A DNA stretch of 64,000 nt from a virus. Taxonomy: Duplodnaviria > Caudoviricetes. The stretch lies in the IMG/VR virus record IMGVR_UViG_3300037067_001255, positions 1 to 64,000 of that record. One strand, 5' to 3'. Every line of letters starts with the position of its first letter. The first letter of the stretch is position 1. This document shows positions 10,240 through 26,430 of the stretch, piece after piece. The notes beneath the pieces were generated by a model, which worked only from the letters and a program-made list of their open reading frames with translations, was not told where the DNA came from and did not search any database. The position numbers were made by a program, and so were the translations under genes.

Positions 10240-10497
10240 ATGAAATTCGAGTTTGTAGACCTGCTTGTACATCTAATACACCAAGATGGTAGTATTGACT
10301 CGTTCGACGTAAATGGGGAGTCATGTGACTTGATGACTCTCTTAGGAATGTTGGAGCATTCTGGCTATATCTGTGGGGAATGGTGCGCGTTTTCTAACAT
10401 AGTTGTAATCGGGCTAAGCAAAGAAACTAAGATGTTCACTAACTTTTACATTGGATGGGATGGTCTGAAGGCACTATTGAAGGAGTGTGGAGAATAA
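10240..10497 (+). CDS. Hypothetical protein (Y.G..GL family)
   Basis: GGAGG RBS; FYIGWDGLKAL. Confidence 0.6.
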   Translation: MKFEFVDLLVHLIHQDGSIDSFDVNGESCDLMTLLGMLEHSGYICGEWCAFSNIVVIGLSKETKMFTNFYIGWDGLKALLKECGE

Positions 10498-10767
10498 TGG
10501 GAAAGACATTGAGGAACTACCAATATTATAAGGGAGGCAAGAAAACAAGGGAGAAGCAGAGTCATTCAAGATCAAGTATGACGATTCGATTCCTCAGAGG
10601 GTATATCGAATGTACAAAAGACTAGAAGAGGAGGCAATGGTAGTAGAATAAGGAAGAAAGCTCTACTCCTCCCTTAGAATTTAACCTCTAAGGGAGGGTT
10701 GGACTTTTCTTTTTCTGTTTTTTGTAGCCCCGAATTTCGGGGAAATCTAAAGAAGGATGTGAGTTAC

Positions 10768-11379
10768 ATGTTCTCAGGTATTGATAATGCCCAGTCGTTC
10801 GGACGTTACTATGTTCTAAAGATGTTGGAACGTTTTGCAGAGGAGTTTGTACTGACGGGCTCAGCATGTTACCTATCTCACCCGGCAGATTTGGATTTCT
10901 TTGCAGAAGATCACGAGCATACTGGTAAGTTTCTAAAGAATAACGGGTTTGTTCGGTATCCGGCTGAAGATGGTGAGGAATTTGTTGGAATTCCATCTGT
11001 TGACGTAGAAGAGTACACAAGGGACCCTCATGTAGTTTCGTTGTGGATACATATGTGTGGTATCCATGTAATGTTGGTTGACGATTTCCTTCTTAGGAAG
11101 GAGAAGATCAATCCAACCTGTACTGAATTCTTCCGGGGCCTAATGGAAGAGGGACGAAGAATTAGAACTGATTTCCTCTCCAAGGACTTCAGGCGCGTAT
11201 TTTGGTATCTAACTGTGATGTTGTATCATTCAAAGGATGTAGAAGCAAAGGAGGATAAGAAGGTAAGTCTCGATGATGCATATAGAGTTCCCTATTCTGG
11301 GCTGCCAAGGGGAACTACAATTACACATGTTCCTGATGGGGCGTACGATGAGAATGATACTCCGGCAGAGAGAGGTTAA
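10768..11379 (+). CDS. Possible nucleotidyltransferase-fold protein
   Basis: VLTGS....PADLDFF (hG[GS]x9-13DhDh-like motif). Confidence 0.45.
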   Translation: MFSGIDNAQSFGRYYVLKMLERFAEEFVLTGSACYLSHPADLDFFAEDHEHTGKFLKNNGFVRYPAEDGEEFVGIPSVDVEEYTRDPHVVSLWIHMCGIHVMLVDDFLLRKEKINPTCTEFFRGLMEEGRRIRTDFLSKDFRRVFWYLTVMLYHSKDVEAKEDKKVSLDDAYRVPYSGLPRGTTITHVPDGAYDENDTPAERG

Positions 11380-11473
11380 GCAGTAAGGTCTAAACTCTGG
11401 GTATAAATCATTTATAACTGTCACACTTGATTTATGCCCAGTCTTAGGTCATACTAAAAAGGAGGAAGTAGAT

Positions 11474-12123
11474 ATGAGACATATAACGATAAATGGTATC
11501 CCATACTGCAAGTGCCGTGATCTAAAGCCGGATTACTACGACTGGAAGAAATATCCGTGGGAAGCAACAAAACCATGTTGTTACGAAGCCGTAGATGAGG
11601 AAATCTACGGCTTTGCAAACTATCTATGTGTGGAGCATAGATATAAGAAGATTGACATAGTAGATGGACCTTGTCCTTTCTGCTATGCAGTCGAGTATGA
11701 TATGAAGGAGGAGAACAGATGAGTTTCATTCTTAGAAACATGACCGGACATAACCCGTTTGGTGACAAGATCGTGTACGGGTATAGCAGTTTGCCTGATG
11801 TTTGGGTATTCTCTGAGCTGGATGTAGCATTTGCACATATCCTTAATCTTCCTACTCCTGATATGGAAGATGATGCACTCTACTTGATTGAGGATGATGG
11901 AGAAACAAAGGAGCTAATCTGGGCGTTTGAAGGATGGCACTATGCGGGTGTTGCTGAGGGAACTTGGAAGAAGATTGTCAAGGAGGAATACCTACCTGGA
12001 TTTTCCGTTAGAGTAGAAGATGCTCTCTACAAGATGGAAGAGTGTGGTGGAGGCTGTGATAGAATTCCGATCAATACCATTGAAGATATGCTTAGGCATA
12101 TCGAAAGTGGACATAAGGAGTGA
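11474..12123 (+). CDS. Two coupled hypothetical genes (11474..11722, 11719..12123)
   Basis: AGGAGG RBSs; ATGA overlap. Confidence 0.55.
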
Positions 12124-12638
12124 AAAAGAGTGGCTTGCATTACAGTTCTAGTGGCAGTGTCTTGTCTTACGCTCTATACACACGCTTCACATTACCCTGG
12201 ATGGGGTAATGAATTTATTGGGGGTGTTCTTCTTTTCTGGGGCATTCTGTGTACTGTGCTAGCAGCAATGAACCATATTGGTATGGATAAGAAAGGGTGA
12301 AAAAGAGTGGCTTCTCTTAGGGAACTGATAGACAAGTATGGAGTTCCTCTGAAAGTGGTGTGGTATCTTGGCTCACATCCAGTACGAAGTACAATTATCT
12401 CGGATGAAGGGAAAACTTGTACACAAAAGACTAGTAGTGGAAAGATTTGGACTGGGGTGCAGACTAAATGTGAAGGATGTAATGATTATGAGGTAGATAA
12501 AGAGATGAGTACAAGTGAGTGAGGAAGTAATGATGATGGTTGTGCTGACAGTTGTATTGGCGTTGTTCTTCGTTGTATTGTACTTCACGTCGGACAATAA
12601 GCTTTAGCGTAATCTAAGGCTATAAATGATTTATAGGT

Positions 12639-12716
12639 GGGCCCTTAGCTCAATTAGGTTAGAGCAAACGGCTCATAACCGTTAGGTTCCGGGTTCAAAT
12701 CCCGGAGGGCCCACCA
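12639..12716 (+). tRNA. tRNA-Ile2 (CAT, lysidine type; reads AUA)
   Basis: Full cloverleaf GGGCCCT/AGGGCCC, loop CTCATAA, encoded CCA, C4/C5 acceptor pairs typical of TilS substrates; no C1:A72 mismatch, so not fMet. Confidence 0.85.
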
Positions 12717-12732
12717 AATAATCCAAAAGGAG

Positions 12733-13500
12733 TTGGGAAAGATGGAACGTAGAATCGTAGTGTATTTCTACGACGATTGTGGTATTGTAGCAGAAGTAAA
12801 GTGCCGGTCTATGGAGAAGATTGATACAAGTTCTAACTGCTGTGACGATCTTGGGATTGTTATTGAAGTCATTAAGGGGGAAAATCCCGGATATAGTTTC
12901 CGACCTTCGATGAAGTCAAGAGAGAAGTCTCGGAGTGATAGTGAAATTAAGAAATTGGAGGCTACAAAAGAAGAGAAGGATGATAATTGGGTACTATGTC
13001 CATTTTGCGAGCACTATTCTACTAAGCACGAGGTAATTGAGACTCGTAGGAGTGAGGGTGAGTATTACTGTCTTTATTGCCTGGAACATGTCTTTAGTGC
13101 AGAAGAACTGGGGGTAGAAGAAGAGAAAAAGGAAGAAAAGGAAGATGAAAGTCTTTGTGATACTTGTATTAGTAGAGGAAAATGTAAAGTGCTAGTTACT
13201 CCCGGAAATAAGATTTATCAGTGCATTAACTATACTAGCAATGAGTTTGAGATCATTAGTATCAAGAATTCTGGTTATACTCCTAGTCGTCTTGCTAGAT
13301 TTGCCGGTGGGAGTTTGATACTCTACCAAGGCGTATGGTTGGCCATCTATGAAGAAAATGTAGTGTTGGATTGTAAGGTGTCTACCGAAAAACTTCCTGG
13401 ATATACAAGTAGGAAGGACCTTGTACGTAAGATTGCCAAGAGGGCTGGTAGGTATGTTGCGAATCAAGATGCAATTAGGGTGAAGAAGAGTGATATGTAA
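12733..13500 (+). CDS. Cys-rich hypothetical protein
   Basis: CPFC, CLYC, CDTC motifs. Confidence 0.6.
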   Translation: MGKMERRIVVYFYDDCGIVAEVKCRSMEKIDTSSNCCDDLGIVIEVIKGENPGYSFRPSMKSREKSRSDSEIKKLEATKEEKDDNWVLCPFCEHYSTKHEVIETRRSEGEYYCLYCLEHVFSAEELGVEEEKKEEKEDESLCDTCISRGKCKVLVTPGNKIYQCINYTSNEFEIISIKNSGYTPSRLARFAGGSLILYQGVWLAIYEENVVLDCKVSTEKLPGYTSRKDLVRKIAKRAGRYVANQDAIRVKKSDM

Positions 13501-13810
13501 CAAGACACTAAAAGCAAGGTGGGTATACAAGGGGGTGGAAAGAACCCTAAAGATATACCCACCATCACAAAAGTTCTTAAACATGCTAGCATTCCTGGAT
13601 GTAGAAAGGAGAGTGGGGGAGATACGAGAGTGGTGTGCTAAGTTTGTATCACCTTTTTATGGAGATTGCCCCCAAAAAGTGATACAAGCTTATATAAAGT
13701 TATATGGTATTGATGTTACAAGTCCGGGGGAATGTGAAAGAAACCCAAGATGGAAGGAGGACATTTGTTATCAGTCTAGAATAAGATTTCTAAGAGAGAC
13801 CTATAAATGA
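13490..13810 (+). CDS. Hypothetical protein
   Basis: Stop codon overlaps the palindrome at 13802. Confidence 0.5.
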   Translation: MICNKTLKARWVYKGVERTLKIYPPSQKFLNMLAFLDVERRVGEIREWCAKFVSPFYGDCPQKVIQAYIKLYGIDVTSPGECERNPRWKEDICYQSRIRFLRETYK

Positions 13811-13858
13811 TTTATAGCTGCTACTCACTTAGCTGCTATAATCGAAGGAGGAAGCAAA

Positions 13859-14083
13859 ATGACAGTCTTTGTTACACTAATAGATGGTACCAAGATTGAA
13901 GGGGTAACAGTACCAAAGTCGGATACTACAGATCACATCTTAGCAGAAGGGATCATTGAGGCTGCTATTGGAAAGGAGTACATTTGTGTAGGATGTACTT
14001 CTCCTACTCGGCACACTAAGGAAGTGATCTGTAGGATGTATATCCCAAAGGATAAGATTTTGCATATTACTGTTGTTGAGTAA
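13859..14083 (+). CDS. Small beta-barrel (Sm-like?) protein
   Basis: VTLIDGTKIEG...YIPKDKI; paralogous to N-terminus of 14509. Confidence 0.5.
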   Translation: MTVFVTLIDGTKIEGVTVPKSDTTDHILAEGIIEAAIGKEYICVGCTSPTRHTKEVICRMYIPKDKILHITVVE

Positions 14084-14092
14084 GTAATTAGT

Positions 14093-14179
14093 GCCGGAGT
14101 GGTGGAATTGGCATACACGACTGGCCTAAACCCAATTGCCCGAAAGGGATTGAGGGTTCGAGTCCCTCCTCCGGCACCA
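14093..14179 (+). tRNA. tRNA-Leu (TAA), atypical C33
   Basis: GCCGGAG/CTCCGGC acceptor, long variable arm CCC-GAAA-GGG, A73, CCA; anticodon loop CCTAAAC. Confidence 0.85.
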
Positions 14180-14204
14180 AACAAATACCAAAAGGAGTAA
14201 GGAA

Positions 14205-15573
14205 ATGGTTACACTGGGAGACTTCATCACTAATCATGTATCACCACAAGGCAATTACCATGATTGCGGTGATGCACGGACCTTCTGGGGATTTGCTACT
14301 TATGCTAAAACCAATACAGACTCTACAATCTGTTTTAGGTTTCTAACACCTAGAGTGGGAAAGGAGTATTCAACGGTAGTAGTTACAGTGGATTCTGGGA
14401 AGAGACAGAAGAATGGACAAATGATCTACTTCTGTATCTTCAATCCAGAGTCAGTAGAACAAGCAGAGAAGGATTTACTTAGTCTACTAGAACTAGCAGA
14501 GAAGGAGAATGAAGATGAAAGTAATTGCAAAGCTGGTTAATGGAGAAGAAGTAGTAGGATTGGTACCAGAGACACAGAGTCTTGAGAGTATATTGGAGGT
14601 AGTCAGTAGCTTTGTTAGTGAGAGGGGAGATTTTCTAACACTTAGTCCATTACAGCGAAAGGATGGACAGTTTGATAAGAAGGTATTCATTCCAAAGAGT
14701 AGTGTGGTTTATGTGACGATTGATAACAGTGAGGAGGAAGAAGTAGAAGAGAATAACAAAGAAGAGGAAGAGGAGAAGGAATGTGATAACTGTGCACATC
14801 TTCATTCACCAGAAGAGTGTAAGAAATGTGGTGTAATTAGGGATGGAGAGGACAAAGGCGGGTACAAAAATTGGAAGAAGATTGCTATCAATATGGTAAG
14901 ATGTCCAAAGTGTCTAAAGGACTTCACTAAGGTATACGTTATTAACTGGAATGAGCACGGAAAGAATGGACCATTTGTCTGTCCTCACTGCACTGGGCAT
15001 GTCTTTAATATTGGAGAACTAAAACTAGAGAAGGAGGACAACAATGAAACAGCCAATTGAAGTGAGCAAGTTATATGATACTGGTCGATGTATGGAAGTT
15101 GCTAAGGAACTCGGGGGAGATATTCATTGTGGAACTATGTCATTACCGAATGAATGGGTGGCAGAGTATCAAGGAGAGGTAATTGGTAACTTTCCTATTG
15201 CAGATAATCCAAAGTTAAGATGTGTTACTGGTTGTGCTACGGATTTGGAACAGATTAAGATAATCAATGATCTACGTAGGCAGAATATAGAGATAGTTCA
15301 CTCCCTTCTTTTTCTTGTAGCCCAAAGAGCAGGCCACAAAGTTGATTCTGTCAACAAATTGATCTATCCTAAGGAAGAAGAGTAATGTACTATATCCGGG
15401 CAGTAATAGCAGGTTTCAGGTGCTATATACAAAAAGGAACTAAAACAGAAAGTACGCATGATAGGAAGGAGGCCAAGAAGTTTAAGGACAAAGAGGGTGC
15501 AAGAGAATTCATCCGTACTAGGGGACTTATCTCTTCAGTATGGAAAGTAGTGAAAGTTACTGAAAGGAAGTGA
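14205..15573 (+). CDS. Four hypothetical genes (14205..14540, 14509..15060, 15044..15385, 15385..15573)
   Basis: Overlapping/coupled ORFs with RBSs; 14509 has CxxC pairs. Confidence 0.55.
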
Positions 15574-15689
15574 CAATTTGTACCTTTTTGTCCTTATTCT
15601 GGCCGCTTTTGTACTGATTTCGTTGGTGTGATGAGCCATAAATGATTTATAGTCTCTCAAAACGGGCCAACCAAAAAGGAGAGAGTAGA

Positions 15690-16787
15690 ATGAAGAACTG
15701 GCAATTGATCCAAAAGTGGGCAGAGAGAATTTCAGATGGGGATGAGGAGTTGTATCAAGGATTCTCTCTTAGTGCTCAGGGAAGGTTCTTGTACTCAGAT
15801 AAGTATGGTAGAGACATTTATGCCATTCATTGTGGGAGGTTTATCCTGATGGATGGAACTACTGGGCAGTTTCCTCCGATGTCTCCTTCAAGAGGACAGA
15901 TCAATTCTCAAATTCGGGCAACAAATAATTGGGGTAATGATGGGCCAGTACCTGTTGTTATCTCTACCTCCTTTGAAGTCCTTCAGCGAGTAATTGGTAA
16001 TGTTGATATGCCAATCAATACTGACAGGATGGATTATCTCTCAAGTGATAGGGTACATAACCTTGATGAGCTAAGAGTTGAGGCGGGGTTTGATTGGGGA
16101 GATTACCACATCTTTTATATCAGGGGAAACTATTGGGTTTTCGGTAGATACTGGGGGAAGAATAAGCAGAATTTTGCCTTTTCTTCACGGATTAGGAACG
16201 GTTATCTTAGTGACCTAATTCCTCAAGAATGTTATCTAACTGCAAATGAACTTAACAACCTAAAGCAGATGGAGGATAGTCCTGGGATCAATATCCCTTA
16301 TCTTGTTAACGGGAGGAAAATCCTTAGGCGGGGGATTAAGAGACAAGGAGACCTGTTCTTCATTCCAGTAGAAGCAGTAAACAAGCCTAATACTAGGATA
16401 TTTCAGAATAACAGCAATTTGATTGAGGACTTTATGTGTGAAAAGGTAATTGCACTAAGGTCTGAGGTAGACCTTTACCTAAAGTTTGATTATGTATCAA
16501 ACAGGGTAGATAGTCTATATCCAACTGTAGCAAGTAGTCGTCATTCATTCACGGACGTAGCAGTAGGACAATTTGCTACTACAAGTTTTGGAGGAAATTC
16601 TATACCTTCCTCACCAGAACTACTTGTTAGAGGAGTAGTTCGACATCCAGAACATTCAAACGTGAAGCTTGAAGTAGTTAATGATAAGCACAGGAAGTCA
16701 GGAGGTTGGTTCATTGTTCGTAAGAACGGTGCATTGGAGTCATATTCTGCAAATCTAACCCGCTCTGGGCGGGCTAATTCAGATTAG
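15690..16787 (+). CDS. Hypothetical protein with RQGD motif
   Basis: KRQGDLFFIPV...RH....HPEH pattern seen in phage proteins. Confidence 0.6.
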   Translation: MKNWQLIQKWAERISDGDEELYQGFSLSAQGRFLYSDKYGRDIYAIHCGRFILMDGTTGQFPPMSPSRGQINSQIRATNNWGNDGPVPVVISTSFEVLQRVIGNVDMPINTDRMDYLSSDRVHNLDELRVEAGFDWGDYHIFYIRGNYWVFGRYWGKNKQNFAFSSRIRNGYLSDLIPQECYLTANELNNLKQMEDSPGINIPYLVNGRKILRRGIKRQGDLFFIPVEAVNKPNTRIFQNNSNLIEDFMCEKVIALRSEVDLYLKFDYVSNRVDSLYPTVASSRHSFTDVAVGQFATTSFGGNSIPSSPELLVRGVVRHPEHSNVKLEVVNDKHRKSGGWFIVRKNGALESYSANLTRSGRANSD

Positions 16788-16798
16788 GAGGAAGAATA

Positions 16799-17782
16799 AT
16801 GAGTCATTATTTCGAGACAGGATATAGTGTTAGGGAACCAATGTGGCATGGATTGGGTGTAGTGTTAGAGGACTATCCAAAAGATGCAATAGAGGCACAA
16901 CAATTGGCAGGACTTGACTGGAGGGTTAGAACATCTCCAATCTTTACTAAGAATGTAGATGGAGAGGTATGGATTCCAGAGCATCTTGCAGTCACAAGAG
17001 ATGATAACAACAAGGTGCTGGCAGTTGTTACAAATAAGTATGAGCCTATTCAGAACTCTGTTCTGTTTGATTTCATTGATCGCTTGCTTATGCTTGATAA
17101 GGGGGCAAAGTTTGAAACGGCGGGAAGCCTAAAAGAAGGGAGGGTTGTTTGGGCACTAACAGAACTAACAAGTCAAGAGTTCGCAATCGGAGGTAACGAT
17201 GATCTAAATAAGACGTATCTGCTAACTACAACCTCACATGATAAGTCATTGGCCTTTCAGGCAGTGGTGACTAATGTAAGGGTGGTGTGTTGGAATACAT
17301 TATCCCTTGCGTTAGGGACTACACAGAATAGTTGGAAGATTCGTCATGTGGGGGATGTAGAGGATAAAGTAGATGACGCAAGGATGGCACTGAAGATTTC
17401 CTTCAGGTGGAATAAGCAATTTAAGGAGGTATTGGAAGCCTTAGCAAAGGAGAAGATAGATGATGATTTAGAGAGCAAGATTGCAGAGGCATTATGGCCC
17501 ATTTCTGAGGAACTACTGGAAAATAAAGAGGAAAATGAGGAAAAAGTAGATAGGATTATAGACAAAAGGGGTGAAATTAACGACCTGTTTCTCCAAGTGG
17601 GGGAGCAAGACGAGTCAATTGCAGGAACCAAGTATGCGTTCTTGCAAGCAGTGACAGAGCAAGAGACTTGGTATCCTTCCTTTAAGGAACCAACACAGAG
17701 GTCTGTTCTCTGGAATGGCCTTGTGAATGATGAGTCAAGTAGGGGACGAAAAGCTCTTGCCTACAATATGTTGATTGCATAG
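16799..17782 (+). CDS. DUF932 / TIGR03299-like phage/plasmid protein
   Basis: PMWHGLG, AGLDW.V, YEPIQN, FETAGSLKEGRVVW, SHD, VRVVCWNTL, IRH. Confidence 0.88.
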   Translation: MSHYFETGYSVREPMWHGLGVVLEDYPKDAIEAQQLAGLDWRVRTSPIFTKNVDGEVWIPEHLAVTRDDNNKVLAVVTNKYEPIQNSVLFDFIDRLLMLDKGAKFETAGSLKEGRVVWALTELTSQEFAIGGNDDLNKTYLLTTTSHDKSLAFQAVVTNVRVVCWNTLSLALGTTQNSWKIRHVGDVEDKVDDARMALKISFRWNKQFKEVLEALAKEKIDDDLESKIAEALWPISEELLENKEENEEKVDRIIDKRGEINDLFLQVGEQDESIAGTKYAFLQAVTEQETWYPSFKEPTQRSVLWNGLVNDESSRGRKALAYNMLIA

Positions 17783-17798
17783 GCCAAAATCATCCCTA

Positions 17799-17827
17799 TT
17801 GACACAGATAGGGCTATGTGATATGAT
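17799..17827 (+). promoter_or_regulatory. Sigma70-type promoter of the parB-like gene
   Basis: TTGACA-17 bp-TATGAT with extended -10 TG; palindrome at 17881 lies between promoter and ATG. Confidence 0.75.
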
Positions 17828-17967
17828 AACACTCCCAGGTTCAAGGAGGTGACCTACAATTCGTTGACCTAACAGTGGCGTATAAATGATTTATAGCTCA
17901 AGCAGTACCGAGACAACCCTCTTCGTTAGAAGAGAAACCCCACAGTAGTAAAAGGAAAAAACGTATC

Positions 17968-19053
17968 ATGGCTACTCAGGCTACCAAGCAGGCAATGATC
18001 GAGTTTGACAAGATCGTCATTGATCCTTCCATCTGCGTGAACCCTCGGGGACCAGAGGCTATGGAACCCAAGGCACTAGGAAGTCTTCAGTCTAATATTG
18101 AGACTGAGGGTCTTTTGACACCTTTGACGATTGCAAAGGTTGGAAAGCAGTACGTTCTTGTTAGTGGTTTTCGCCGTCACGCTTGTATCACTATGATTCG
18201 TGATGGTAAAGTAGTTAACGAATCCTCCAAGTATGCGGATATCTTCCCCGGTGGTAAGGTTCCTGTTGTAGTTCTTAGTGAGGTTGATGATGCTCTTACG
18301 ACTAAGCAGAACTTTGCAATTGCTAATATCATTGAGAACATGCAGCGCGAGGACCTTAAGCCATATGAACGGTCTCAGGCAATTGCACAACTTTGTGGTA
18401 AGGATACTGAGAAGGGCGAACTCGGTCTTAGTCAGACTGCGGCAGCGGAACGGACAGGCATGACACAGGCTTATGTATCTATGCTTTTCAACATTAACAA
18501 GAAGGCCTCTGAGAAGGTTTTTGCAGCCTTTGCAGAAGGCAACCTTTCGGTGGAACAGGCCCGTGATCTTAGCAAGTTGTCGGAGGAAGAGCAAGATGCT
18601 AAGATGGGTGCCGTAGAGGCACTGGATGACGATGAGGTGGAGATTGAGGAGGAAGACGGAATTCCAAAGCGGGGTAGTGGTCTTCCCAAGGCACAGGTTA
18701 TGAAGTCGAAGAAGCAGAAGAAGGCAGAGGCAGCACAGGTGTTGGATGGAGATGCCAAGCCGAAGTTTGTTTATTCGGCTAGTAAGGTTGCGAAGATGGT
18801 TGCCGGGATTGAGAAGTACGGAATTAACCCCATGCACAGTAAGGACAGTTACATTGACGGTGTCCTTGCTATGGGTAAGGCCCTTCTTGGTATTGAGGTC
18901 TTCCCCTTCGATATTACTGAGCCGGAACCGGAGGAGAAGCCAAAGAAGGCTAAGAAGGGGAAGAAGGCAGCAGAGGTGTTGGATGATGAGGAAGAGGAGG
19001 TTGAAGAGGAGGAACTTGACGACGATGAGGAACTTGATGTAGACGATGAGTAG
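17968..19053 (+). CDS. parB: ParB/RepB/Spo0J-family protein (CTPase clamp + HTH, acidic tail)
   Basis: GLLTPL, LVSGFRR arginine patch, ENMQREDL, HTH LSQTAAAERTGMTQAYVS, G.LS...A..L. Confidence 0.9.
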   Translation: MATQATKQAMIEFDKIVIDPSICVNPRGPEAMEPKALGSLQSNIETEGLLTPLTIAKVGKQYVLVSGFRRHACITMIRDGKVVNESSKYADIFPGGKVPVVVLSEVDDALTTKQNFAIANIIENMQREDLKPYERSQAIAQLCGKDTEKGELGLSQTAAAERTGMTQAYVSMLFNINKKASEKVFAAFAEGNLSVEQARDLSKLSEEEQDAKMGAVEALDDDEVEIEEEDGIPKRGSGLPKAQVMKSKKQKKAEAAQVLDGDAKPKFVYSASKVAKMVAGIEKYGINPMHSKDSYIDGVLAMGKALLGIEVFPFDITEPEPEEKPKKAKKGKKAAEVLDDEEEEVEEEELDDDEELDVDDE

Positions 19054-19086
19054 TATGTAAGGTAGCATACAAAGTCAAGTAGAAAA

Positions 19087-19128
19087 AAGAAAGGGGCCTT
19101 CTGCTTAGAAAGAGGAGGCCCCTTTCTT
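19087..19128. terminator. Hairpin terminator after parB
   Basis: AAGAAAGGGGCCTTCT / AGGAGGCCCCTTTCTT. Confidence 0.7.
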
Positions 19129-19583
19129 ACCAATGGAGGTTTGAATTCATGGAAAAGCAAGAAGGATATGACTGGTATACTAGACTTGTGGAATCTAAGG
19201 ATGAGAATAGATATGTTATTCATGTGGGAGAGGAAACTGAAGATGCATATTGTCTTTCAGATGCTCTACATAGAGCAAGAGAACTAAAGGCATTAAATCT
19301 TCCAGGGTGTAGCAACGAGGTTTGGATTGAGTGCATTCGTACAACTAAGATGAAACACATTCTTGTATGGGGGAAGGCATAATGGCAAAACAAACTACAG
19401 TACAATGGCGTATTTTCGTAGGAACTGATGTAGTGGAGAATATAAGGGGAAAGACTATTCAAACGATCAATGCAAGGGTACGTAGTTTACAAAAGAAGCA
19501 TCCTACAGAGGAGATTACAGTAGAGAAGACTATTACCTCTGTAGAGTATACTACGTATCAGGAGGAAAAAGGAGTAAAGAATG

Positions 19584-19973
19584 ATGAAGGGAGATCAGTA
19601 CCTGCGCTTGATAGGTAAGGCAAAAGAGGAGGCATTAAAGAGTAGTTTTATTTGGTGGAAGATGGGATGTTTGATTGTTAGGGGAGGAAAGGTAATAGGG
19701 AAAGGGCATAATAGATATTCAGGTAAGAGTGAATGGGTATCTAAGAGATATGGGGTATCTTCTTGGTCATTACATGCTGAGGTAGATGCTCTCCTTTCTC
19801 TAGAGGTTGGCCCCGGCGGGGCAACAGTAGTAATAAATGGGGTAAAGCATAATGGAAATCAGATGTTATGTAAGCCTTGTAAGAACTGTCTTAAGATTCT
19901 AAAGTTGGTAGGAGTGGAGAAGATAGTATATGCAACAAAAAGTGGGTACTCAGTAATTATACTGAACCCATAA
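19584..19973 (+). CDS. Zn-dependent cytidine/dCMP deaminase-fold protein
   Basis: GCLIV..GKVIGKGHN, SLHAE, KPCKNC, GVEKIVY. Confidence 0.88.
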   Translation: MKGDQYLRLIGKAKEEALKSSFIWWKMGCLIVRGGKVIGKGHNRYSGKSEWVSKRYGVSSWSLHAEVDALLSLEVGPGGATVVINGVKHNGNQMLCKPCKNCLKILKLVGVEKIVYATKSGYSVIILNP

Positions 19974-20004
19974 ATCATTTATAGTTGAGGAGGAGAATAA
20001 CTAA

Positions 20005-21097
20005 ATGGGAGTAGCAACTGTATGGGTGAATATGAGAGTTCCTATTAGCATGATAGGAGAGGCATGTGCGGGACAATGCAAGTTTCTTTCTAGGTTGTCC
20101 GATGCTAGAGTTTGTGCATTGTTTGATCGGGTTATCTATCCTTCTGAGGATGGGTATCAGAGGTGTCAAGAATGTATTGATTTAGTAAATAAGGAAGACG
20201 AGGAGCAGAGAAATGCTTAGTACCAAGATAGATGGAACTCCTACAGTTAATCCTGATTTACTAGAAAGAACAAGATGTGCGCATTGTGGAGAAGTACATG
20301 GTATTGTTAGATATATGAGGTGTTTCGCCGAATTTCCGGTAAACAGTGACAAGTATTTTACCATCTATGGTAATGTTGCTGTTGGAATTAACGGAGGGAT
20401 CATTGGAAATAACTTTAATTCGGAGGGTAAGTTGGAAAAGGCAAGTATTGTTTGCTATGATTGTTTTGTACAGTATCTAAGACCTACTATCAACGAGGAG
20501 GATAAAGATGGAAAAGGATAAGTTTGCAGAAACAGATCATGGTATGGAAATCATAGATGATAGGCAGATTGTAGATGGTAGGCCTCAACCAGAAAAGAGT
20601 TCAGTACAGGCATACTCTGAACTAAAGAGTAGACTTCTAACGGTGTGGCTAAGGACAAAGCACGGAAGTAGGACAGAAACAGTAGAGCACTTAGGGGAGG
20701 ACTATATCTATACACATCACAAATGTAGTAATTGTAGAAGAACAATCTCCTTAGATACAAGATTTGGTCTCCAACCAAGTATAGGATTTGATAAGTGTAG
20801 GAGGTAGTATAAATCATTTATAGCTGGAGGTAGGTTAGAATGTCAGTAACTATAAGAGATGATGATGCAGTTTCTAAGGAATTTTATATCTATCACAAAG
20901 TAACTGTTAGATATAAGAATGATAGGTATTGTTCGATGTCGTGTTTATTTCTTGATATAGGAGTAGGAACAACGTGCTTGCTCACTGATGAGAAGCTTCA
21001 ATGCGAGAACATTCCTTGTAAAGAAGCAGAGAATGGATTCTCTATGGAGTATGTTAGGTCCCAATGTTGCAAGAATTATTGTAGGGGGTGTTTGTAA
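20005..21097 (+). CDS. Four small Cys-rich hypothetical genes (20005, 20213, 20508, 20840)
   Basis: Coupled ORFs with RBSs and CxxC motifs. Confidence 0.55.
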
Positions 21098-22194
21098 TAA
21101 CAGAGGAGGAAGCAAGAAAGTATATAGAAAGTTGTAATATATACTGGAGTTTGCAAGTAGCCTCAAGGTCTTCCTATGGATTTTTTATGCTGCCCAATTT
21201 TCTATCTCTAAATGTAAAGAAGATAGGGCTAAAAGCAGCAGATTTCTTAGTATATGTATATCTTTGTGCATACCTAAGACCTGGAAATACAACACCATTT
21301 CCCAGTGAAGAGAGGATTGCTAATGATTTAGGGATAGGACTAAGAACAGTAGTTAGAACTATTCAGAGATTAGTCGAAAATGGTATGGTTTCTGTTATCA
21401 AAACTAATAGAAAGAACGGAGTTGGTTCACGAAATAGCTATGATCCTTTGCCAGGATTACACAAAACACTAACAGAGATGTACGAAAAAGACAGTAAATT
21501 TAGGGAATTTCTTGATGATATGGCCTCTAATAGAGAGGAAGATGGTGTCCAAGAAACAGAGCTAAGTGCCAAAATGGCACGTACTCGTATAGGGACTATA
21601 GAAAAGCTAAGTGCCAAAATGGCACACGAAGTATATAACGACTCTAAAGGAAAACAGAATGACGGAGCTAAGGATAAGGAGGAGGAATATAAATCATTTA
21701 TAGTAGTAGATGAAGAGGAGGAAAAGGGGGCTAAACAAGAAAAAGAAACTAGTCCTCTAAAAGTAATAACAGTTAAAGCTCTTAGAGAGGGGAAGGTTTC
21801 TACTCTCTTAGATTACTGGAGGACCCTCTTTGAAACTGTCTTAGGAAGAACTTCCTTAGCAAAGAGAGGCCCCGTTAGTTACGGCAAGCTAAACACGGCC
21901 TTAGAAGTGCTAAGGACACATGCGGACTTAATGGTCATTATGGAATGGGTAGTAGATCGTAGAAAGGAGAATGAGCCAGTTTGGCCTAAGGCAGAAATAA
22001 GAGACCCCACTCTTGGCTTGTTGGCTGGATCAGAGAGGTTGCAAGGTTTCTTAGAAAACATCATGGAGGATGAGTATTGGCGAAGAAGGAGGGCAAAGTT
22101 CAATTCCATTGCACTTGGGGGTCCAGAAGGAATAAAAAAGAAGTTCCAAGAAAAAGAAGCAAGTATTCTACTTAGGGAGTTGAAGAGAAGATGA
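21088..22194 (+). CDS. Phage replication initiator (winged HTH, HTH_36-like)
   Basis: LVYVYL...FPSEERIANDLGIGLRTVVRTIQRLVENGMV...N.Y; upstream of dnaB/dnaG; internal iterons. Confidence 0.8.
   Translation: MFVITEEEARKYIESCNIYWSLQVASRSSYGFFMLPNFLSLNVKKIGLKAADFLVYVYLCAYLRPGNTTPFPSEERIANDLGIGLRTVVRTIQRLVENGMVSVIKTNRKNGVGSRNSYDPLPGLHKTLTEMYEKDSKFREFLDDMASNREEDGVQETELSAKMARTRIGTIEKLSAKMAHEVYNDSKGKQNDGAKDKEEEYKSFIVVDEEEEKGAKQEKETSPLKVITVKALREGKVSTLLDYWRTLFETVLGRTSLAKRGPVSYGKLNTALEVLRTHADLMVIMEWVVDRRKENEPVWPKAEIRDPTLGLLAGSERLQGFLENIMEDEYWRRRRAKFNSIALGGPEGIKKKFQEKEASILLRELKRR
21560..21625 (+). repeat. Iteron pair, candidate replication origin
   Basis: AGCTAAGTGCCAAAATGGCAC at 21560 and 21605, each with internal GTGCCA-AAA-TGGCAC dyad. 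Confidence 0.7.
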
Positions 22195-22771
22195 AAGCTA
22201 TAACAGCGGTAGTTATAGTCTTTGCAGCAGTAACACTGAGCTTCATATTCATAGTATCGTTTAATCCAAAATGTGTAGGTCCACTATGTATTGGATGGTG
22301 TATCCTCTATCTACATTTTTATGTTATCTTTCAGTCCTTAGTAGAGATAGAGTTAAAGCAAAGGATAAAAATAAAGATGGGAATTGAAGGAGTTGAATAG
22401 GAAATGAAGCTAACGAGTAGTTGGTTGATGTTTTGGTTTGGAATGTTTACTACGGTTTTCATAGCATTACCGGGGGAAAAACCTCCTCTGTTGTTCATTT
22501 TACTGCTTGTTGCCTGGGAAGTAGGATATACTGTTTTTTGTATTAGCTTTACAAATGCAGTTATTAAGGAGGAGAAAGAAAGATGAGACTAAAGGAGTGG
22601 ATGATTTCTTGGTTTGGTATTTTGACCTTTTGTATTATGGCAATGATTTCAATGAAACAGTCTCTATTAACTCCAATGTTTCTATGCTGGGTAATTGTAT
22701 TTGTATTGTTTTGCTATTACTTTACTAAGGTAGTTGAAATAGAATTGAAGGAGAGAAAGAAAGATGAGTGA
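22191..22771 (+). CDS. Three tandem small membrane proteins (22191..22400, 22404..22586, 22583..22771)
   Basis: Two hydrophobic segments each; shared VEIELK-type tail. Confidence 0.6.
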
Positions 22772-23244
22772 TAAGACTGTAGGACAGGAGTTCGCAGATA
22801 ACTACCGAAGAGATGCAATAAGTCAAAGGGAAAACTCTCCAGCCGAATCTATTGCAAGCAGTCTAATTGCTATTAGTTGGCAGTTAGCTGAGATGATTTG
22901 TATCTTTAGAGACTCTATGGAAAAAAGTAAGAAGGATGACAGAGGAGGAATGCTATTAGAAGAGGTAAGAAATGTTGGATATAGAATTACAGAGATTGGA
23001 CAAATACTTCGTAATAATACTCCATAGATAGGAGAGATGAATAGTGGTGCATAATGACTATACTGAAATGTGGGTAGCAGCACAGATAATTTCAGCAGTG
23101 TTTCTTATTACATTTTCACTGGCAGTTATGATATATGTAACAGTTCTATACTTTAGGAGGTTAATAGAAATAAAGAGTAGTAAGAAGACAACAAAGTCAG
23201 ATGGCAGGCTGAGGTATAAACTTTATAAGTAGAGAGGAGAAGAA

Positions 23245-23640
23245 ATGTTACACTATCCAAAAGTAGGAGTAGATGTAAGATGTCTGATGCAAGGAAGTCC
23301 TTGGTCTTTGAAATACAGCGTAGACTGGGGAGTTATAAATGATTTATGGAATGAGGATAGGTGCTGGAATGTTCAGGTGTTTTCTCCAAGAGGAGTAGTT
23401 CCTATTAGATTACAATTTCTTGATCTTCCATTCGACTTTCCTTTGGTTTGTAAAGACTTACATGACTGGGAAACAAGAGCATTTATTCATGATGTTAAGA
23501 GGATATTCACTGATGACACATGCCTACTTTCTAATCTGAGATTTCTGACTCGTATGTGGACTGGTGTAGGGGATGTAGCGAAATATGCAAAGGATATTAT
23601 AGATGCGAAAAGCAGACCCAGAAGTCAATTTGCTAAATAA
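23245..23640 (+). CDS. Hypothetical protein
   Basis: RBS; overlaps dnaB start. Confidence 0.55.
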   Translation: MLHYPKVGVDVRCLMQGSPWSLKYSVDWGVINDLWNEDRCWNVQVFSPRGVVPIRLQFLDLPFDFPLVCKDLHDWETRAFIHDVKRIFTDDTCLLSNLRFLTRMWTGVGDVAKYAKDIIDAKSRPRSQFAK

Positions 23641-24895
23641 GTCAATTGAAATAGGAATGCAATCTGCTCTTAGGGTGGGGGTAAAGAGAACTCTTTTCAT
23701 TAGGTGGCAGAATGTGTGGGACTATTGTGAGAAGTTCTTCTTAGAGCATAATACAACTCCTACAATGGATACAGTACAGGAGAAGTTTGAAGTCTTTCCT
23801 TCTGTATCCGTGCCGGAACCACTTGAGCATTATTTCCATGAGGTTGAATGGAGTTATGAAAGGAGTAGATATATTAGATATGTAGATGAACTGAATCAAG
23901 CAATTAAAGAGGACCCGGAGCGATGCAAGAAATTGACTACTGGTCTCTATGCAGACATTGTATGTCGTCCATCATTTATGGATGATATTTCAAGTGGGGA
24001 TTTGAAAGACTCATACAACTTGATTACCTCCTTGGAACAGGATTTTGCTTCAGCAATTCCTACCGGGTTTGATGTGTTGGACGACGAAATTGGTGGGATA
24101 ATGCCAGGAGAGTTCTGGGGAATTATTGGTCCTACCTACACAGGAAAGACTTGGAACCTTCTGAATATTGGTTTGAATTCTGTAAGGAAAGGAAAGAATG
24201 TTTTATTCATAAGCTGTGAGATGATTCCACAGAGAGTGTGGATCAGATTTCTTTCTCTTCTTTTTGAGTTGCCCGCTAAAAGAGTTAGGCAGGGAAGGCT
24301 GACAATACAAGAGAAGAAAACTCTAAAGGGGGCTGTAAAAACAGTAGAGGAACTACCGGGAAAGATTACCATTATCAAACCCAGTTCTCGGGGGATAGCA
24401 TCTATCAGAGAGAAGATTTATCAGTACAATCCAGATATTGTATTGATAGATGCTTGGTATGATCTGGTAGACGAAGACTTGCACATAGCAATGTGGGAGA
24501 AGCTTTCTTTACTCTCTGCAGGCATTAAACGCATTAACTTGGAGACAGGTGTACCTGTTGTAATCACACATCAGATGGGAAGGGCGGGGGCAGAGAGAAG
24601 AAAAGGAGCGAGACTAACAGATATTGCAGGATCATACAATATCAATGGGTGGCTGGATGTAGCATTGGTATTGATGATAAATGATACTCTTAGGAGAACT
24701 TCAGAACTTGGAGTATTAGCACGTAAGATCAGAGACTTTGATCCAATGTCATTTACAGTGAAACTAAATGTGAATGAAGGAGAACCAATGAAAGTGGTAA
24801 GAAGTAGATGGATCATTGAGGATGCAATTGAAGGTCGCGGGGAAAGACTGTCAGATGATGAGTTGGACTCACTGCAAGATAACTCGTTGATTTAA
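23603..24895 (+). CDS. dnaB: DnaB-like replicative helicase
   Basis: IPTGFDVLD, GPTYTGKT Walker A, SCEM, VLIDAW, HQMGR, DIAGS. Confidence 0.92.
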   Translation: MRKADPEVNLLNKSIEIGMQSALRVGVKRTLFIRWQNVWDYCEKFFLEHNTTPTMDTVQEKFEVFPSVSVPEPLEHYFHEVEWSYERSRYIRYVDELNQAIKEDPERCKKLTTGLYADIVCRPSFMDDISSGDLKDSYNLITSLEQDFASAIPTGFDVLDDEIGGIMPGEFWGIIGPTYTGKTWNLLNIGLNSVRKGKNVLFISCEMIPQRVWIRFLSLLFELPAKRVRQGRLTIQEKKTLKGAVKTVEELPGKITIIKPSSRGIASIREKIYQYNPDIVLIDAWYDLVDEDLHIAMWEKLSLLSAGIKRINLETGVPVVITHQMGRAGAERRKGARLTDIAGSYNINGWLDVALVLMINDTLRRTSELGVLARKIRDFDPMSFTVKLNVNEGEPMKVVRSRWIIEDAIEGRGERLSDDELDSLQDNSLI

Positions 24896-24905
24896 GGGTG
24901 ATAGT

Positions 24906-25814
24906 ATGGGTCAAGAACTACAAAGCCTAATAGCAAGTTGGGAGATAGAAGTAAGAAATGTATCAGGAAATGAGATACATTGTCTATGCCCCTTTCATCA
25001 AGATAACAGAGTGTCCTTTTCAATTAACTCACTAACGGGTAAGTGGATTTGCTTCCGGGGCTGCGGAAAAGGATCATTAGAAACCTTAGCAGCAAGACTT
25101 GGAAAGACAATAGATGATTTCTATATTACAGATGATGATATACAATTGAGATTAGAAGATACTATAAGTCAAGAGACTACAGATTTCTTTCGGAAGCATG
25201 TTGGTGGATTTTGTCAATCTGGAACCAAGCTTGGAAAGAAGCTTGAAAGATACATGAAATCCAGGGGAGTATCTTATAATATTGTTAATGAGTTTGATAT
25301 AAGGATAAGTAATGACGAGGAAATTATGTACCCGGTGAGAAGTAGAGATATTGGATCAAGTAGTAAGGTTGTTGGTATACTACTTCAGAGGATTGGAGAG
25401 AAGGCAATCTCTCCCGGATTTGAGAAATCTAACTACTTGTATGGTATGTGTGAAACTAAGAAATGGATAGAATGTGATACGTTTGTAATCTGTGAAGGTC
25501 CTATTGATTTATTGCATATCTATCAAGCAGGATATGCTGGCGGGGCCTTAATGGGATCGTCTATTAGTGATAGACAAGTTCAGTGGGTACTGTCTACAGG
25601 AATAGATGATATTGTGATTTTCACAGATTATGACTTGGCGGGGGTAAGATGCGCAAAAGAGATTGTAGATAAGTTAGTAGCAAAAGGAGTATTACCTTCA
25701 GTAGTAAGATGGCAGGATATTCCAAACAAGAAAATAGGAAGTGATCCTGGAGAGCTTTCACGAAGAGAGATTAGACGACTGGTGGAGAATGCAGAACGTG
25801 TGTCACCAGTATAA
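24906..25814 (+). CDS. dnaG: DnaG-type primase (CHC2 Zn finger + TOPRIM)
   Basis: CPFHQD..SF...W.CFRGCG; CEGPID; D.D.AG. Confidence 0.92.
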   Translation: MGQELQSLIASWEIEVRNVSGNEIHCLCPFHQDNRVSFSINSLTGKWICFRGCGKGSLETLAARLGKTIDDFYITDDDIQLRLEDTISQETTDFFRKHVGGFCQSGTKLGKKLERYMKSRGVSYNIVNEFDIRISNDEEIMYPVRSRDIGSSSKVVGILLQRIGEKAISPGFEKSNYLYGMCETKKWIECDTFVICEGPIDLLHIYQAGYAGGALMGSSISDRQVQWVLSTGIDDIVIFTDYDLAGVRCAKEIVDKLVAKGVLPSVVRWQDIPNKKIGSDPGELSRREIRRLVENAERVSPV

Positions 25815-26430
25815 ATCATTTATAGATAGGAGTTGATTACCGTGGAACAAGAATGTGATGATGGATTTTGTAAGGATTGTCATTACTTAGAATGTGTTGG
25901 TGGTAGTTATACCTGCTTCAATATTGATGGGGCGCCAGAACTTACAAAAGATAAGGATGCTAATATTATTAGACATAAAGACTGTTCTGGGTGGGAAGGG
26001 GAAATAGTAGTAACTAAATTAGAATAGGAGTTGATTGTGATGATTAAGGAACTGGAAGTAATTGTTTCAATAGCAAATGATCCCTTGTGGAGTAGTGGGG
26101 GAATGGAGGAAAATGTAGTAGTTTCTCTATATCCAGAGAACAGGGATGTGGAGAAACTAGCTGAGGATAATGGATGGACTATTACATGTAAACAGTCTAG
26201 ATATTCATTATATCCAATGCTGGGTATTTTAATGAGTTGGGAATATTGTGTTGATAATGGGGTGATTGGCTTTAAGGATTTTTGTGGTAATTCTGATTTT
26301 GACAGTGAGAGATGTATTCTTAAGTGTTTACTGACTTCTGCTGGTGTTGATGTTAGCAGCATAGTCTCTTATCTTAGTCCACTACCAATGGATTATAGGT
26401 TTGTGCTAGAATACCTTGTGGGATAGGGCC

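What the first reader, a model, noticed from the sequence alone, without database searches (positions are those of the whole stretch)
17799..19128. Orphan ParB CTPase clamp with the palindrome in its own leader: candidate reader of the lattice
Seen: a stand-alone unit made of a TTGACA-17-TATGAT promoter, an exact palindrome at 17881, parB (GFRR patch, ENMQREDL, HTH, Lys-rich linker, long D/E tail) and a terminator. No ParA or Walker-type partition ATPase is present in the window. Known: ParB-family proteins load at ~13-16-bp palindromes and slide over kilobases using CTP; Noc and KorB use dispersed sites for occlusion or silencing rather than segregation. Inference: sites spaced about one spreading distance apart would let this ParB coat the entire phage chromosome, for protection from host nucleases, organisation of a replication compartment, or transcription timing. 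This would be a ParA-independent phage 'chromatin' system.
Basis: inference. Interest (0 to 1): 0.88.

Follow-up and report, generated by a model that had tools for sequence, protein, structure and literature searches.

The report
Partner-less phage ParB beside palindrome lattice
An uncultured 102-kb groundwater phage makes a stand-alone relative of the bacterial DNA-segregation clamp ParB and also writes one 15-letter palindrome about every 1.8 kb through its whole chromosome; ParB is the best, but still unproven, candidate for the protein that reads those sites.

Summary
Window 17799-19128 is a self-contained unit: near-consensus sigma-70 promoter, palindrome, a 361-aa ParB/Noc-type protein with intact CTP motifs, strong terminator. 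The whole 102-kb genome has no ParA, integrase or canonical parS.

The palindrome TATAAATSATTTATA occurs 54 times exactly. Its spacing is far more even than chance, and 22 copies lie inside genes in stop-free frames.

A relative with about 40% protein identity keeps the same word, the same mean spacing and the same largest gap. Site positions are only partly the same.

All four lattice lineages keep parB with its promoter and leader site. ParB is the only recognisable sequence-specific DNA-binding protein they share. An XRE repressor in the site cluster and the initiator's winged helix are not conserved.

Binding is not shown. There is no covariation, because every relative has the same word. 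A more distant ParB+DUF932 phage has no lattice.

New rival: the same word is a single-copy operator-like site beside a conserved small ribbon-helix-helix gene, or before parA, in Beta/Gammaproteobacteria. A host protein may therefore read it.

Earlier notes of this scan report similar lattices with orphan ParBs in other phages. I found no published description.

The parts
17799..17827 (+). sigma-70-type promoter of parB: TTGACA, 17 nt, TATGAT, with a TG extension
   Evidence: Conserved in front of parB in relatives R1/L124, L125 and L221.
17881..17895 (.). Lattice palindrome TATAAATGATTTATA in the parB leader, 53 nt after the -10 hexamer and 72 nt before the start codon
   Evidence: Positionally conserved in all four lineages. 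In R1 it is the only imperfect copy among 32.
17968..19053 (+). parB: 361-aa orphan ParB/Noc-type protein. N-terminal CTPase-fold domain (NPR, GFRR, ENMQREDL), HTH with recognition helix TQAYVSM, disordered Lys-rich linker, small two-helix C-terminal domain, acidic tail.
19087..19128 (+). Intrinsic terminator hairpin followed by UUUCUU
   Evidence: -29.1 kcal/mol, z -5.3.
16799..17782 (+). DUF932 protein (327 aa), a conserved neighbour upstream of parB
   Evidence: PF06067 next to parB in every relative. 39-44% identity.
15642..16787 (+). Conserved protein of about 380 aa with no known family; first gene of the conserved trio
1536..63363 (.). The lattice within the window: 34 exact and 8 one-mismatch copies of TATAAATSATTTATA
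   Evidence: It continues to 101316 in the genome.
3430..5370 (.). Dense cluster of 9 sites among small early genes, including two pairs 21-22 bp apart (3793/3815 and 4998/5019) that together resemble a -35/-10 pair
3461..3790 (+). XRE-family HTH_3 protein (109 aa), flanked by sites; a rival reader
   Evidence: (HTH_3, 45.9 bits). No homologue in 60 kb of relative R1.
21088..22194 (+). DnaD-like replication initiator with an N-terminal winged helix (HTH_36); it has one lattice site inside it (21688)
   Evidence: Only its C-terminal third is conserved in relatives.

Best explanation
The unit at 17799-19128 encodes a ParA-independent ParB/Noc-type DNA clamp of a virulent-looking phage. It is made from its own strong host-type promoter.

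My best reading is that ParB dimers dock through their helix-turn-helix on the palindrome TATAAATSATTTATA. This word is kept about every 1.8 kb, and never more than 3.8 kb apart, along the whole chromosome. From these sites ParB would close around the DNA and slide, as Noc, KorB and BisD do with CTP, so that one protein reaches all of the phage DNA. The copy in its own leader would give feedback control.

Shown:
- family membership and intact CTP-motif residues;
- absence of ParA and of canonical parS;
- reality, even spacing and conservation of the lattice;
- co-occurrence of the lattice with parB.

Inferred:
- binding of ParB to this word;
- CTP-dependent sliding;
- the purpose. The sites usually sit immediately before ribosome-binding sites, so I favour genome-wide control of transcription or access to DNA over segregation.
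For: 1. Family. The profile hits Spo0J at 1e-24 and Noc at 1e-19, and the fold search agrees. NPR, GxRR and ENxQRxDL are invariant in the clade.

2. Orphan status.
- No ParA.
- No LG[KR]GL ParA-binding N-terminus (motif as defined in PMC12704722).
- No integrase or resolvase.
- No parS, NBS or OB within 2 mismatches.

3. The lattice is selected at the DNA level.
- 54 exact copies.
- Gap CV 0.43 against 0.97 for random placement, and largest gap 3.8 kb against 7.9 kb.
- 22 copies inside genes, only in stop-free frames.
- Symmetric flanks and no -35 element.
- No other enriched long word.

4. Replicated in relative R1, which has 25-58% protein identity.
- 32 sites, mean gap 1.92 kb, CV 0.44, largest gap 3.79 kb.
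- Only part of the sites are at orthologous places.
- Corndog's dyad repeats are not evenly spaced (CV 1.06), so evenness is not automatic.

5. All four lattice lineages keep DUF932-parB, the parB promoter and the leader site.

6. Other candidate readers.
- Among recognisable DNA-binding proteins, only ParB is conserved. XRE is absent from R1, and only the initiator's C-terminus is conserved.
- No HU, HTH_17 or sigma regions were found.

7. DNA-contact residues.
- The recognition helix TQAYVS is invariant in the four-lineage alignment; further clade representatives vary it slightly.
- At the position where ParB has R173 (contacts G1 of parS) and Noc has Q (contacts A1 of NBS) (PMC7383237), the clade has an invariant Q.
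- The site's half TATAAAT begins TAT, like the NBS half TATTTCCC.

8. Outer flanks at +-8/9 differ by phage lineage (C; TG; AG), as expected for a phage-encoded reader.

9. Precedents for ParA-independent ParB clamps on dispersed sites: KorB (PMC11790492), BisD (PMC12409273), VirB (PMC10770331), Noc (PMC8429893).
Against: - There is no direct or covariation evidence. Every lattice relative has the same core word, so ParB changes cannot be matched to site changes.
- ParB is only 37-45% identical between lineages, yet the 13-15-bp core is identical. That fits a more conserved reader at least as well.
- The same 17-mer is a single-copy, operator-like site next to a conserved small ribbon-helix-helix gene, or in front of parA, in Beta/Gammaproteobacteria. 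A host protein that reads this word probably exists.
- L311, a phage with a 29%-identical clade ParB and DUF932, has no lattice in 20.8 kb. More distant ParB phages have none either.
- The site is 15 bp (7-1-7), not 16 bp as parS and NBS are. ParB contact residues N178 and R204 are not conserved in the clade.
- Many conserved phage proteins have no known fold and could bind DNA.
Confidence: 0.5

Rival explanations
1. A host protein reads the lattice. The palindrome would be the operator of a conserved proteobacterial small DNA-binding protein: a ribbon-helix-helix-like domain with a histone-H1-like Lys/Ala tail. The phage would copy that word along its genome to recruit, or to soak up, this host protein. 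ParB would then do something else, or would compete for the same word.
For: - The exact 17-mer occurs once per chromosome in 63-71% GC genomes, where it cannot be chance.
- In 14 loci it lies 12-45 nt before the same small gene family. That family has more than 2000 homologues.
- In Massilia, Pseudoduganella and Janthinobacterium it lies before parA.
- The geometry of site, then Shine-Dalgarno, then start codon is the same as at many phage genes.
- An ancient host reader would explain why the core word is identical in phages whose proteins are about 40% identical.
- The source habitats (groundwater, tailings, wastewater) suit Betaproteobacteria.
Against: - The host is unknown. The phage GC of 41% is far from most carriers of this gene, though carriers with 45-49% GC exist.
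- Only 4^7 x 2 palindromes of this shape exist, so a coincidence with some conserved operator is not very unlikely.
- Phage flanks at +-8/9 are lineage-specific and do not follow the bacterial (G/C)G.
- An autoregulated factor with one chromosomal site would be heavily outnumbered by 54 sites per phage copy, and a sponge has no need for even spacing.
- Earlier notes of this scan (unchecked) report other phages whose evenly spaced palindromes have different words.
Confidence: 0.2
2. The palindrome is bound by another, unrecognised phage-encoded dimeric protein, or it is itself a phage-specific promoter or transcription-unit signal. ParB would merely be one of the genes that carry it.
For: - 41 of 63 sites lie at gene boundaries, typically 0-30 nt before the next start.
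- One site directly precedes a tRNA.
- Sites cluster in the early small-gene region with a shared leader.
- Strong sigma-70 promoters are few, so most genes need some other signal.
- Paired sites imitate -35/-10 hexamers.
- Many conserved proteins have no family.
Against: - The word and its flanks are symmetric although all genes run one way. The centre is C 34 and G 29, with no strand bias.
- It has no usable -10: either T at -7 or A at -11 is missing. No sigma factor or phage RNA polymerase was detected.
- A third of the sites lie deep inside long genes at lattice spacing, and spacing is conserved while positions turn over.
Confidence: 0.2
3. The XRE-family repressor (3461-3790) is the reader, as Cro/CI-type proteins read odd-length palindromes.
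For: - It is a clear HTH_3 protein.
- One site lies 16 nt before its ribosome-binding site and a double site lies just after its stop. It sits in the densest site cluster.
Against: There is no homologue in 60 kb of relative R1, which covers the whole syntenic early region, nor in L221 or L125. Yet the lattice is intact there.
Confidence: 0.04
4. The word acts in RNA, as a hairpin or processing signal.
For: All genes are on one strand, so every copy is transcribed in the same sense.
Against: - As RNA it folds at 0 to -3.4 kcal/mol, no better than shuffles.
- The sequence, not the pairing, is conserved, and there are no compensatory changes.
Confidence: 0.02

Closest known systems
KorB and its 12 OB operators on IncP plasmid RK2 (PMC11790492, PMC13584720)
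   Same: - A ParB-family CTP clamp that acts on dispersed palindromes over a whole mobile genome.
- An odd-length palindrome with a central S (my recollection of OB, TTTAGCSGCTAAA).
- Sites near and far from promoters.
- Autoregulation.
   Different: - KorB also partitions the plasmid with the ParA homologue IncC and uses KorA/TrbA as clamp locks. None of these is seen here.
- KorB has 12 sites without even spacing; this phage has 54 evenly spaced ones.
- By sequence this protein is closer to Spo0J/Noc (1e-24, 1e-19) than to KorB (3e-6).
Noc and its NBS sites in Bacillus subtilis (PMC8429893, PMC7383237)
   Same: - An orphan ParB paralogue without ParA and with many dispersed sites.
- Q at the R173-equivalent position and K at the 184-equivalent position.
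- A half-site that begins TAT.
   Different: - Noc has an N-terminal membrane-targeting helix and acts in cell-division control. Here the N-terminus is short and the C-terminus carries a Lys-rich stretch plus an acidic tail.
- The site is 15 bp, not 16 bp.
- This is a phage genome with even spacing.
BisD of ICEclc (PMC12409273) and VirB of Shigella (PMC10770331)
   Same: ParA-independent ParB-like CTP clamps that regulate many genes of a mobile element after loading at palindromes. bisS-3 and virS are 7-bp inverted repeats.
   Different: - They load at one to a few sites and spread over tens of kb.
- BisD needs BisC, and VirB works against H-NS.
- No such partners are known here.
17-bp dyad repeats of Cluster O mycobacteriophages such as Corndog (PMC4351075)
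   Same: - More than 30 exact dyad repeats through a phage genome, about a third of them in coding DNA.
- Few SigA promoters.
- An orphan ParB-like protein (gp90), glycosyltransferases and DNA methyltransferases.
- Function unknown.
   Different: - Corndog's sites are not evenly spaced (CV 1.06).
- gp90 shows no BLASTP match to this ParB.
- The word is different.
Canonical ParABS partition, chromosomal Spo0J/ParB
   Same: Same fold, the same CTP-motif residues and an HTH of the same family.
   Different: No ParA, no ParA-binding motif, no parS, a different C-terminal domain, and no sign of a plasmid or prophage state.

Membership tests
ParB/Spo0J/Noc family (ParB-CTPase fold with HTH) | N-terminal ParB/Srx-type domain with box I (N/QPR), box II (GxxR) and box III (ENxxR) | tested here: met
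   NPR27, GFRR67-70 and ENMQREDL123-130 are invariant or nearly so in the clade and align with canonical ParBs. PDB profile hits cover this domain. Pfam ParB_N scores only 20.1 bits, below the 26.3 cut-off.
ParB/Spo0J/Noc family (ParB-CTPase fold with HTH) | Central helix-turn-helix DNA-binding domain of the ParB type | tested here: met
   PF17762 at 30.3 bits, above the cut-off. Model pLDDT is 87-92 over residues 150-210. Foldseek matches Noc, ParB and KorB.
ParB/Spo0J/Noc family (ParB-CTPase fold with HTH) | C-terminal dimerisation domain (PF23552 type) | tested here: not met
   No PF23552 hit. Instead there is a clade-specific two-helix domain at 271-306 (pLDDT about 70), followed by a disordered Lys-rich and acidic tail. 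Whether it dimerises was not tested.
ParB/Spo0J/Noc family (ParB-CTPase fold with HTH) | Binds and hydrolyses CTP and closes as a clamp at its site | not testable with these tools
   Only the motif residues can be read from sequence.
ParABS partition system | Cognate ParA (Walker-type ATPase) encoded with ParB | tested here: not met
   PF13614 gives no hit. PF01656 gives only an 11-bit match in a 93-aa frame. None is seen in 60 kb of relative R1.
ParABS partition system | N-terminal ParA-interaction motif (L/F/I)G(K/R)G(L/F/I) | tested here: not met
   It is absent from the short N-terminus but present in the canonical ParBs aligned alongside. Motif as defined in PMC12704722.
ParABS partition system | Canonical 16-bp parS | tested here: not met
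   No match within 2 mismatches in 102 kb.
KorB-type global regulator | Dispersed palindromic operators over the element's genome, bound by the ParB-family protein | tested here: inconclusive
   Dispersed palindromes are shown. Binding by this ParB is inferred only.
KorB-type global regulator | Clamp-locking co-repressor (KorA/TrbA) | not tested
   No search for KorA or TrbA homologues was run.

The most novel reading that the evidence does not exclude
A virulent phage uses a partner-less ParB-CTP clamp together with an evenly spaced, genome-wide set of loading sites as a kind of viral chromatin. Every stretch of its DNA lies within one sliding distance of a site, so a single early protein can coat, organise or gate the whole chromosome. 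The loading word is the same as the operator of a conserved host nucleoid-type protein, so the phage clamp may also compete with, or stand in for, that host protein at the host's own parA or regulator locus.
Probability: 0.3. Interest if true: 0.9.

Novelty: new variant of a known kind. Interest (0 to 1): 0.74.

Why it matters
ParB-family CTP clamps are known from chromosome and plasmid segregation, and from a few regulators (Noc, KorB, BisD, VirB) that load at one to a dozen sites.

A lytic phage that keeps a loading word at a selected, even spacing through all its genes, with a ParB that has no ParA, would be a different use of the clamp: whole-genome coverage. It would give a directly testable model for how large phages organise, protect or time their DNA.

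The test material is small: one protein and one 15-bp site.

The match between the phage word and a conserved bacterial operator also points to an uncharacterised proteobacterial DNA-binding protein, and possibly to the phage's host.

Earlier notes of this scan suggest the lattice-plus-ParB pairing recurs in other phages with other words, so it may be a general, undescribed feature.

Tried and rejected
- **Close relatives by ParB in IMG/VR and JGI metagenomes.** Only distant canonical ParBs came back.
- **Exact-word scans of IMG/VR.** These gave single chance hits plus one redundant prophage family. No further lattice phage was found.
- **P0002/P0024, the 79-93% relative.** Its contig could not be fetched.
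- **Covariation test.** Impossible, because all four lattice lineages share the core word. The more distant ParB phages (L311, L312, MT835476, Schnabeltier) have no lattice at all.
- **ParB-dependent T-dioxygenase idea (PMC13229309).** No Tet_JBP gene is present, and those ParBs lack an HTH.
- **Sigma factor, phage RNA polymerase, HU, HTH_17.** None found.
- **RNA hairpin reading.** Rejected on folding energy.
- **RNA-seq evidence.** No RNA holder is listed for this DNA.
- **Rfam on the window.** Only three tRNAs.
- **HMM of the bacterial ribbon-helix-helix family against all phage frames.** Nothing found; best E 8.7.
- **Literature.** No description of a phage-wide ParB site lattice.
- **Complex prediction.** Not used, because no protein-protein claim is made.
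Full report
**What is at the coordinates**

The stretch 17799-19128 reads as one transcription unit.
- A TTGACA-17-TATGAT promoter with a TG extension lies at 17799-17827. It is the best sigma-70 match in the first 20 kb, a region otherwise poorer in such matches than shuffles (31 against 43.7).
- The exact palindrome TATAAATGATTTATA lies at 17881-17895.
- A 361-aa ORF runs from 17968 to 19053.
- A hairpin of -29.1 kcal/mol (z -5.3), followed by UUUCUU, lies at 19087-19128.

The window is the first 64 kb of a 102,062-bp IMG/VR record rated 94% complete. All of its roughly 160 genes are on the + strand. The DNA is held by a groundwater metagenome run.

**The protein**

- Pfam gives HTH_ParB above its cut-off and ParB_N just below. 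PHROGs gives ParB-like partition protein at 1e-19.
- A profile of the four closest relatives hits Thermus Spo0J (1e-24), Noc (1e-19), other ParBs and KorB (3e-6) among solved structures.
- An AlphaFold2 model is confident over the N-terminal domain and the HTH. It shows a disordered linker (222-268), a small two-helix C-terminal domain (271-306) and a disordered acidic tail. Foldseek puts Noc, ParB and KorB on top.
- The CTP-pocket motifs are invariant against canonical ParBs: NPR, GFRR (for GERR) and ENMQREDL.
- The N-terminal LG(K/R)GL motif that marks ParA-binding ParBs (PMC12704722) is missing.

**Is it an orphan?**

The whole genome has:
- no ParA;
- no tyrosine or serine recombinase;
- no canonical parS, NBS or OB within two mismatches.

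The phage therefore looks virulent, and ParB is not part of a partition cassette.

**The lattice**

- The palindrome occurs 42 times with at most one mismatch in the window, against 0.02 expected. There are 54 exact copies in the genome, and 63 with at most one mismatch.
- Gaps are much more even than for random placement. From 11 kb onwards the mean is 1.8 kb and the CV 0.43 against 0.97. The largest gap is 3.8 kb against 7.9 kb. None of 10,000 simulations reached either value.
- Forty-one sites sit at gene boundaries, often 0-30 nt before the next start.
- Twenty-two sit inside genes, only in the two frames that avoid a stop (YKSFI or xIN(D/H)LY). Long genes carry one or two at lattice spacing.
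- The centre is C in 34 and G in 29 although all genes run one way. Flanks are symmetric, with no -35-like element.
- No other long word is enriched.
- As RNA the word does not fold.

Together these facts point to a dimeric protein that reads double-stranded DNA, and to selection on spacing.

**Relatives**

The ParB clade is rare. At 50% clustering, about five representatives besides the phage's own align over the full length. I could fetch four lineages:
- G000, the window's own genome;
- R1, 60,093 bp rebuilt from overlapping loci of one ENA contig with identical overlaps. L220 is nearly the same phage;
- L125/L126;
- L221.

All four keep the core ATAAATSATTTAT at 1-3-kb spacing. All keep DUF932 followed by parB, the TTGACA-17-TATxxT promoter in front of parB, and a site 45-53 nt after its -10.

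R1 shares 36 proteins with G000 at 25-58% identity. It has 32 sites, a mean gap of 1.92 kb, CV 0.44 (random 0.96) and a largest gap of 3.79 kb (random 7.3 kb, P = 0.0008). These are the same figures as in G000.

Site positions are only partly orthologous. The parB leader site, one site at the same place inside the SNF2 gene, the terminase/portal junction and the site upstream of PolA are shared. Many others are not. Sites therefore turn over while density and evenness are kept.

As a control, Corndog's 34 dyad repeats are spaced at random (CV 1.06).

**Who reads the word? The case for ParB**

- Recognisable sequence-specific DNA-binding proteins in G000 are ParB, an XRE-type HTH_3 protein at 3461-3790 and a DnaD-like initiator with a winged helix.
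- The XRE protein sits in a cluster of nine sites and looked like a strong rival. It has no homologue in R1, whose syntenic early region is fully covered, nor in L221 or L125.
- Only the initiator's C-terminal third is conserved.
- No HU, HTH_17 or sigma regions were detected.
- ParB is thus the only recognisable candidate shared by all lattice phages.
- Its recognition helix TQAYVS is invariant in the four-lineage alignment; further clade representatives vary it slightly.
- At the position where ParBs have R173 (contacts G1 of parS) and Noc has Q (contacts A1 of NBS) (PMC7383237), the clade has an invariant Q. It also has a Lys at the 184-equivalent position. The site's half TATAAAT shares its outer TAT with the NBS half TATTTCCC. 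This is consistent but weak.
- In R1 the only imperfect copy among 32 is the one in the parB leader. That would suit a feedback operator, but it is a single case.
- Outer flanks at +-8/9 differ by lineage: C in G000, TG in R1, AG in L221 and L125. This fits a phage-encoded reader that drifts with its phage.

**The case against, and a new rival**

- There is no covariation, since the core word never changes.
- A more distant clade member (P0293, 29% identity, no acidic tail, helix TQGFVSQ) sits near DUF932 in a phage with no lattice in 20.8 kb.
- Other phages with distant ParBs have none either.

More important is what an exact scan of bacterial genomes showed. GTATAAATSATTTATAC occurs once per chromosome in many high-GC Beta- and Gammaproteobacteria.
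- In 14 fetched loci it lies 12-45 nt before one small uncharacterised gene family. The family has a Lys/Ala-rich tail plus a conserved ribbon-helix-helix-like domain and more than 2000 homologues.
- In Massilia, Pseudoduganella and Janthinobacterium the only copies lie between rsmG and parA, while the small gene is elsewhere.
- The phages encode no homologue of this family.

So a host protein that reads this very word probably exists, and it could be the lattice reader if the host is such a bacterium. Four points count against this.
- The host is unknown and the phage GC is 41%.
- Only about 33,000 palindromes of this 7-1-7 shape exist, so a coincidence is not far-fetched.
- The flanks do not match.
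- A sponge has no need for even spacing.

I give this rival about 0.2.

**What it would do**

The purpose is inferred only.
- Sites lie immediately before ribosome-binding sites.
- Pairs 21-22 bp apart imitate a -35/-10 pair in the early region.
- The parB leader carries a site downstream of its promoter.

These suggest genome-wide control of transcription or of access to DNA, as with KorB, BisD or VirB. Even spacing through long genes suggests full coverage from many loading points. Segregation is unlikely without ParA or a prophage state.

**Comparison and novelty**

- The protein is a member of the ParB/Noc family by sequence and fold. It fails the ParABS features: ParA, ParA-binding motif, parS and the usual C-terminal domain.
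- It works most like KorB or Noc, but with far more sites, evenly spaced, in a lytic phage.
- Cluster O mycobacteriophages show dispersed dyad repeats plus an orphan ParB-like protein, of unknown function (PMC4351075), but without even spacing.
- I found no paper describing a phage-wide ParB lattice.
- Earlier notes of this scan, which I did not check, report evenly spaced palindromes with orphan ParB-like proteins in several other phages, each with its own word. If they hold, they raise the odds for ParB and lower those for a host reader.

**Verdict**

Observation confirmed. Interpretation partly supported: ParB as reader 0.5, host ribbon-helix-helix protein 0.2, another phage factor or a promoter-type signal 0.2. 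Interest 0.74.

Noticed in passing
L318:766-1068, L324:3235-3695, L316:3469-4218 and 11 further bacterial loci: A conserved, uncharacterised small protein of Beta/Gammaproteobacteria. It has a histone-H1-like Lys/Ala tail plus a ribbon-helix-helix-like domain (LVRDSFTMP...KKSELLRAGL), with no Pfam hit and more than 2000 homologues. It is preceded by the single chromosomal copy of GTATAAATSATTTATAC. In Massilia, Pseudoduganella and Janthinobacterium the copies lie between rsmG and parA instead.
   Followed up: partly
window 5370-5990: About 600 bp of GC-rich non-coding DNA directly after a lattice site. It looks structured and has no Rfam family at gathering threshold.
   Followed up: partly
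window 3815-3880, 4148-4190, 4683-4760, 5019-5080, 15637-15690: A shared leader after several early sites (gtctctcaattttc...cggggcc/taa, then a purine-rich run and the start codon). It suggests one repeated early expression cassette.
   Followed up: no
window 26431-26459, 45755-45783; genome 74463-74491: Three perfect 12/12 sigma-70 promoters. The first is before an RNase H-like gene and is conserved in R1. The second is before a 69-aa gene that is 59% identical in R1 and lies ahead of the capsid genes. The third is before an 89-aa gene.
   Followed up: partly
genome 86073-97133 (L128, L129); R1 5300-14100: A large sugar module: several glycosyltransferases in both phages and, in R1, an NTP-transferase, a GHMP kinase and methyltransferases whose homologues map to G000 94344-96157. 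Together with two DNA methyltransferases (window 2836-3411 MT-A70; genome 84283-85143) it recalls the glycosylation genes of Corndog. The target, virion or DNA, is unknown.
   Followed up: no
window 1536-2371 versus genome 100478-101316: The two ends of the record carry diverged copies of the same stretch of about 0.8 kb, including two lattice sites and paralogous genes (718-1305 and 99401-99982).
   Followed up: no
window 39519-39839 and 36849-37166: A SpoVS-like (Alba-like) small protein, and an Hjc-like resolvase scoring just below its Pfam cut-off; both have homologues in R1. The first is a possible non-specific nucleic-acid binder.
   Followed up: no
L222:7624-7884 (relative R1): An Acb2/Tad1-type anti-defence sponge gene in the early region of the relative.
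   Followed up: no
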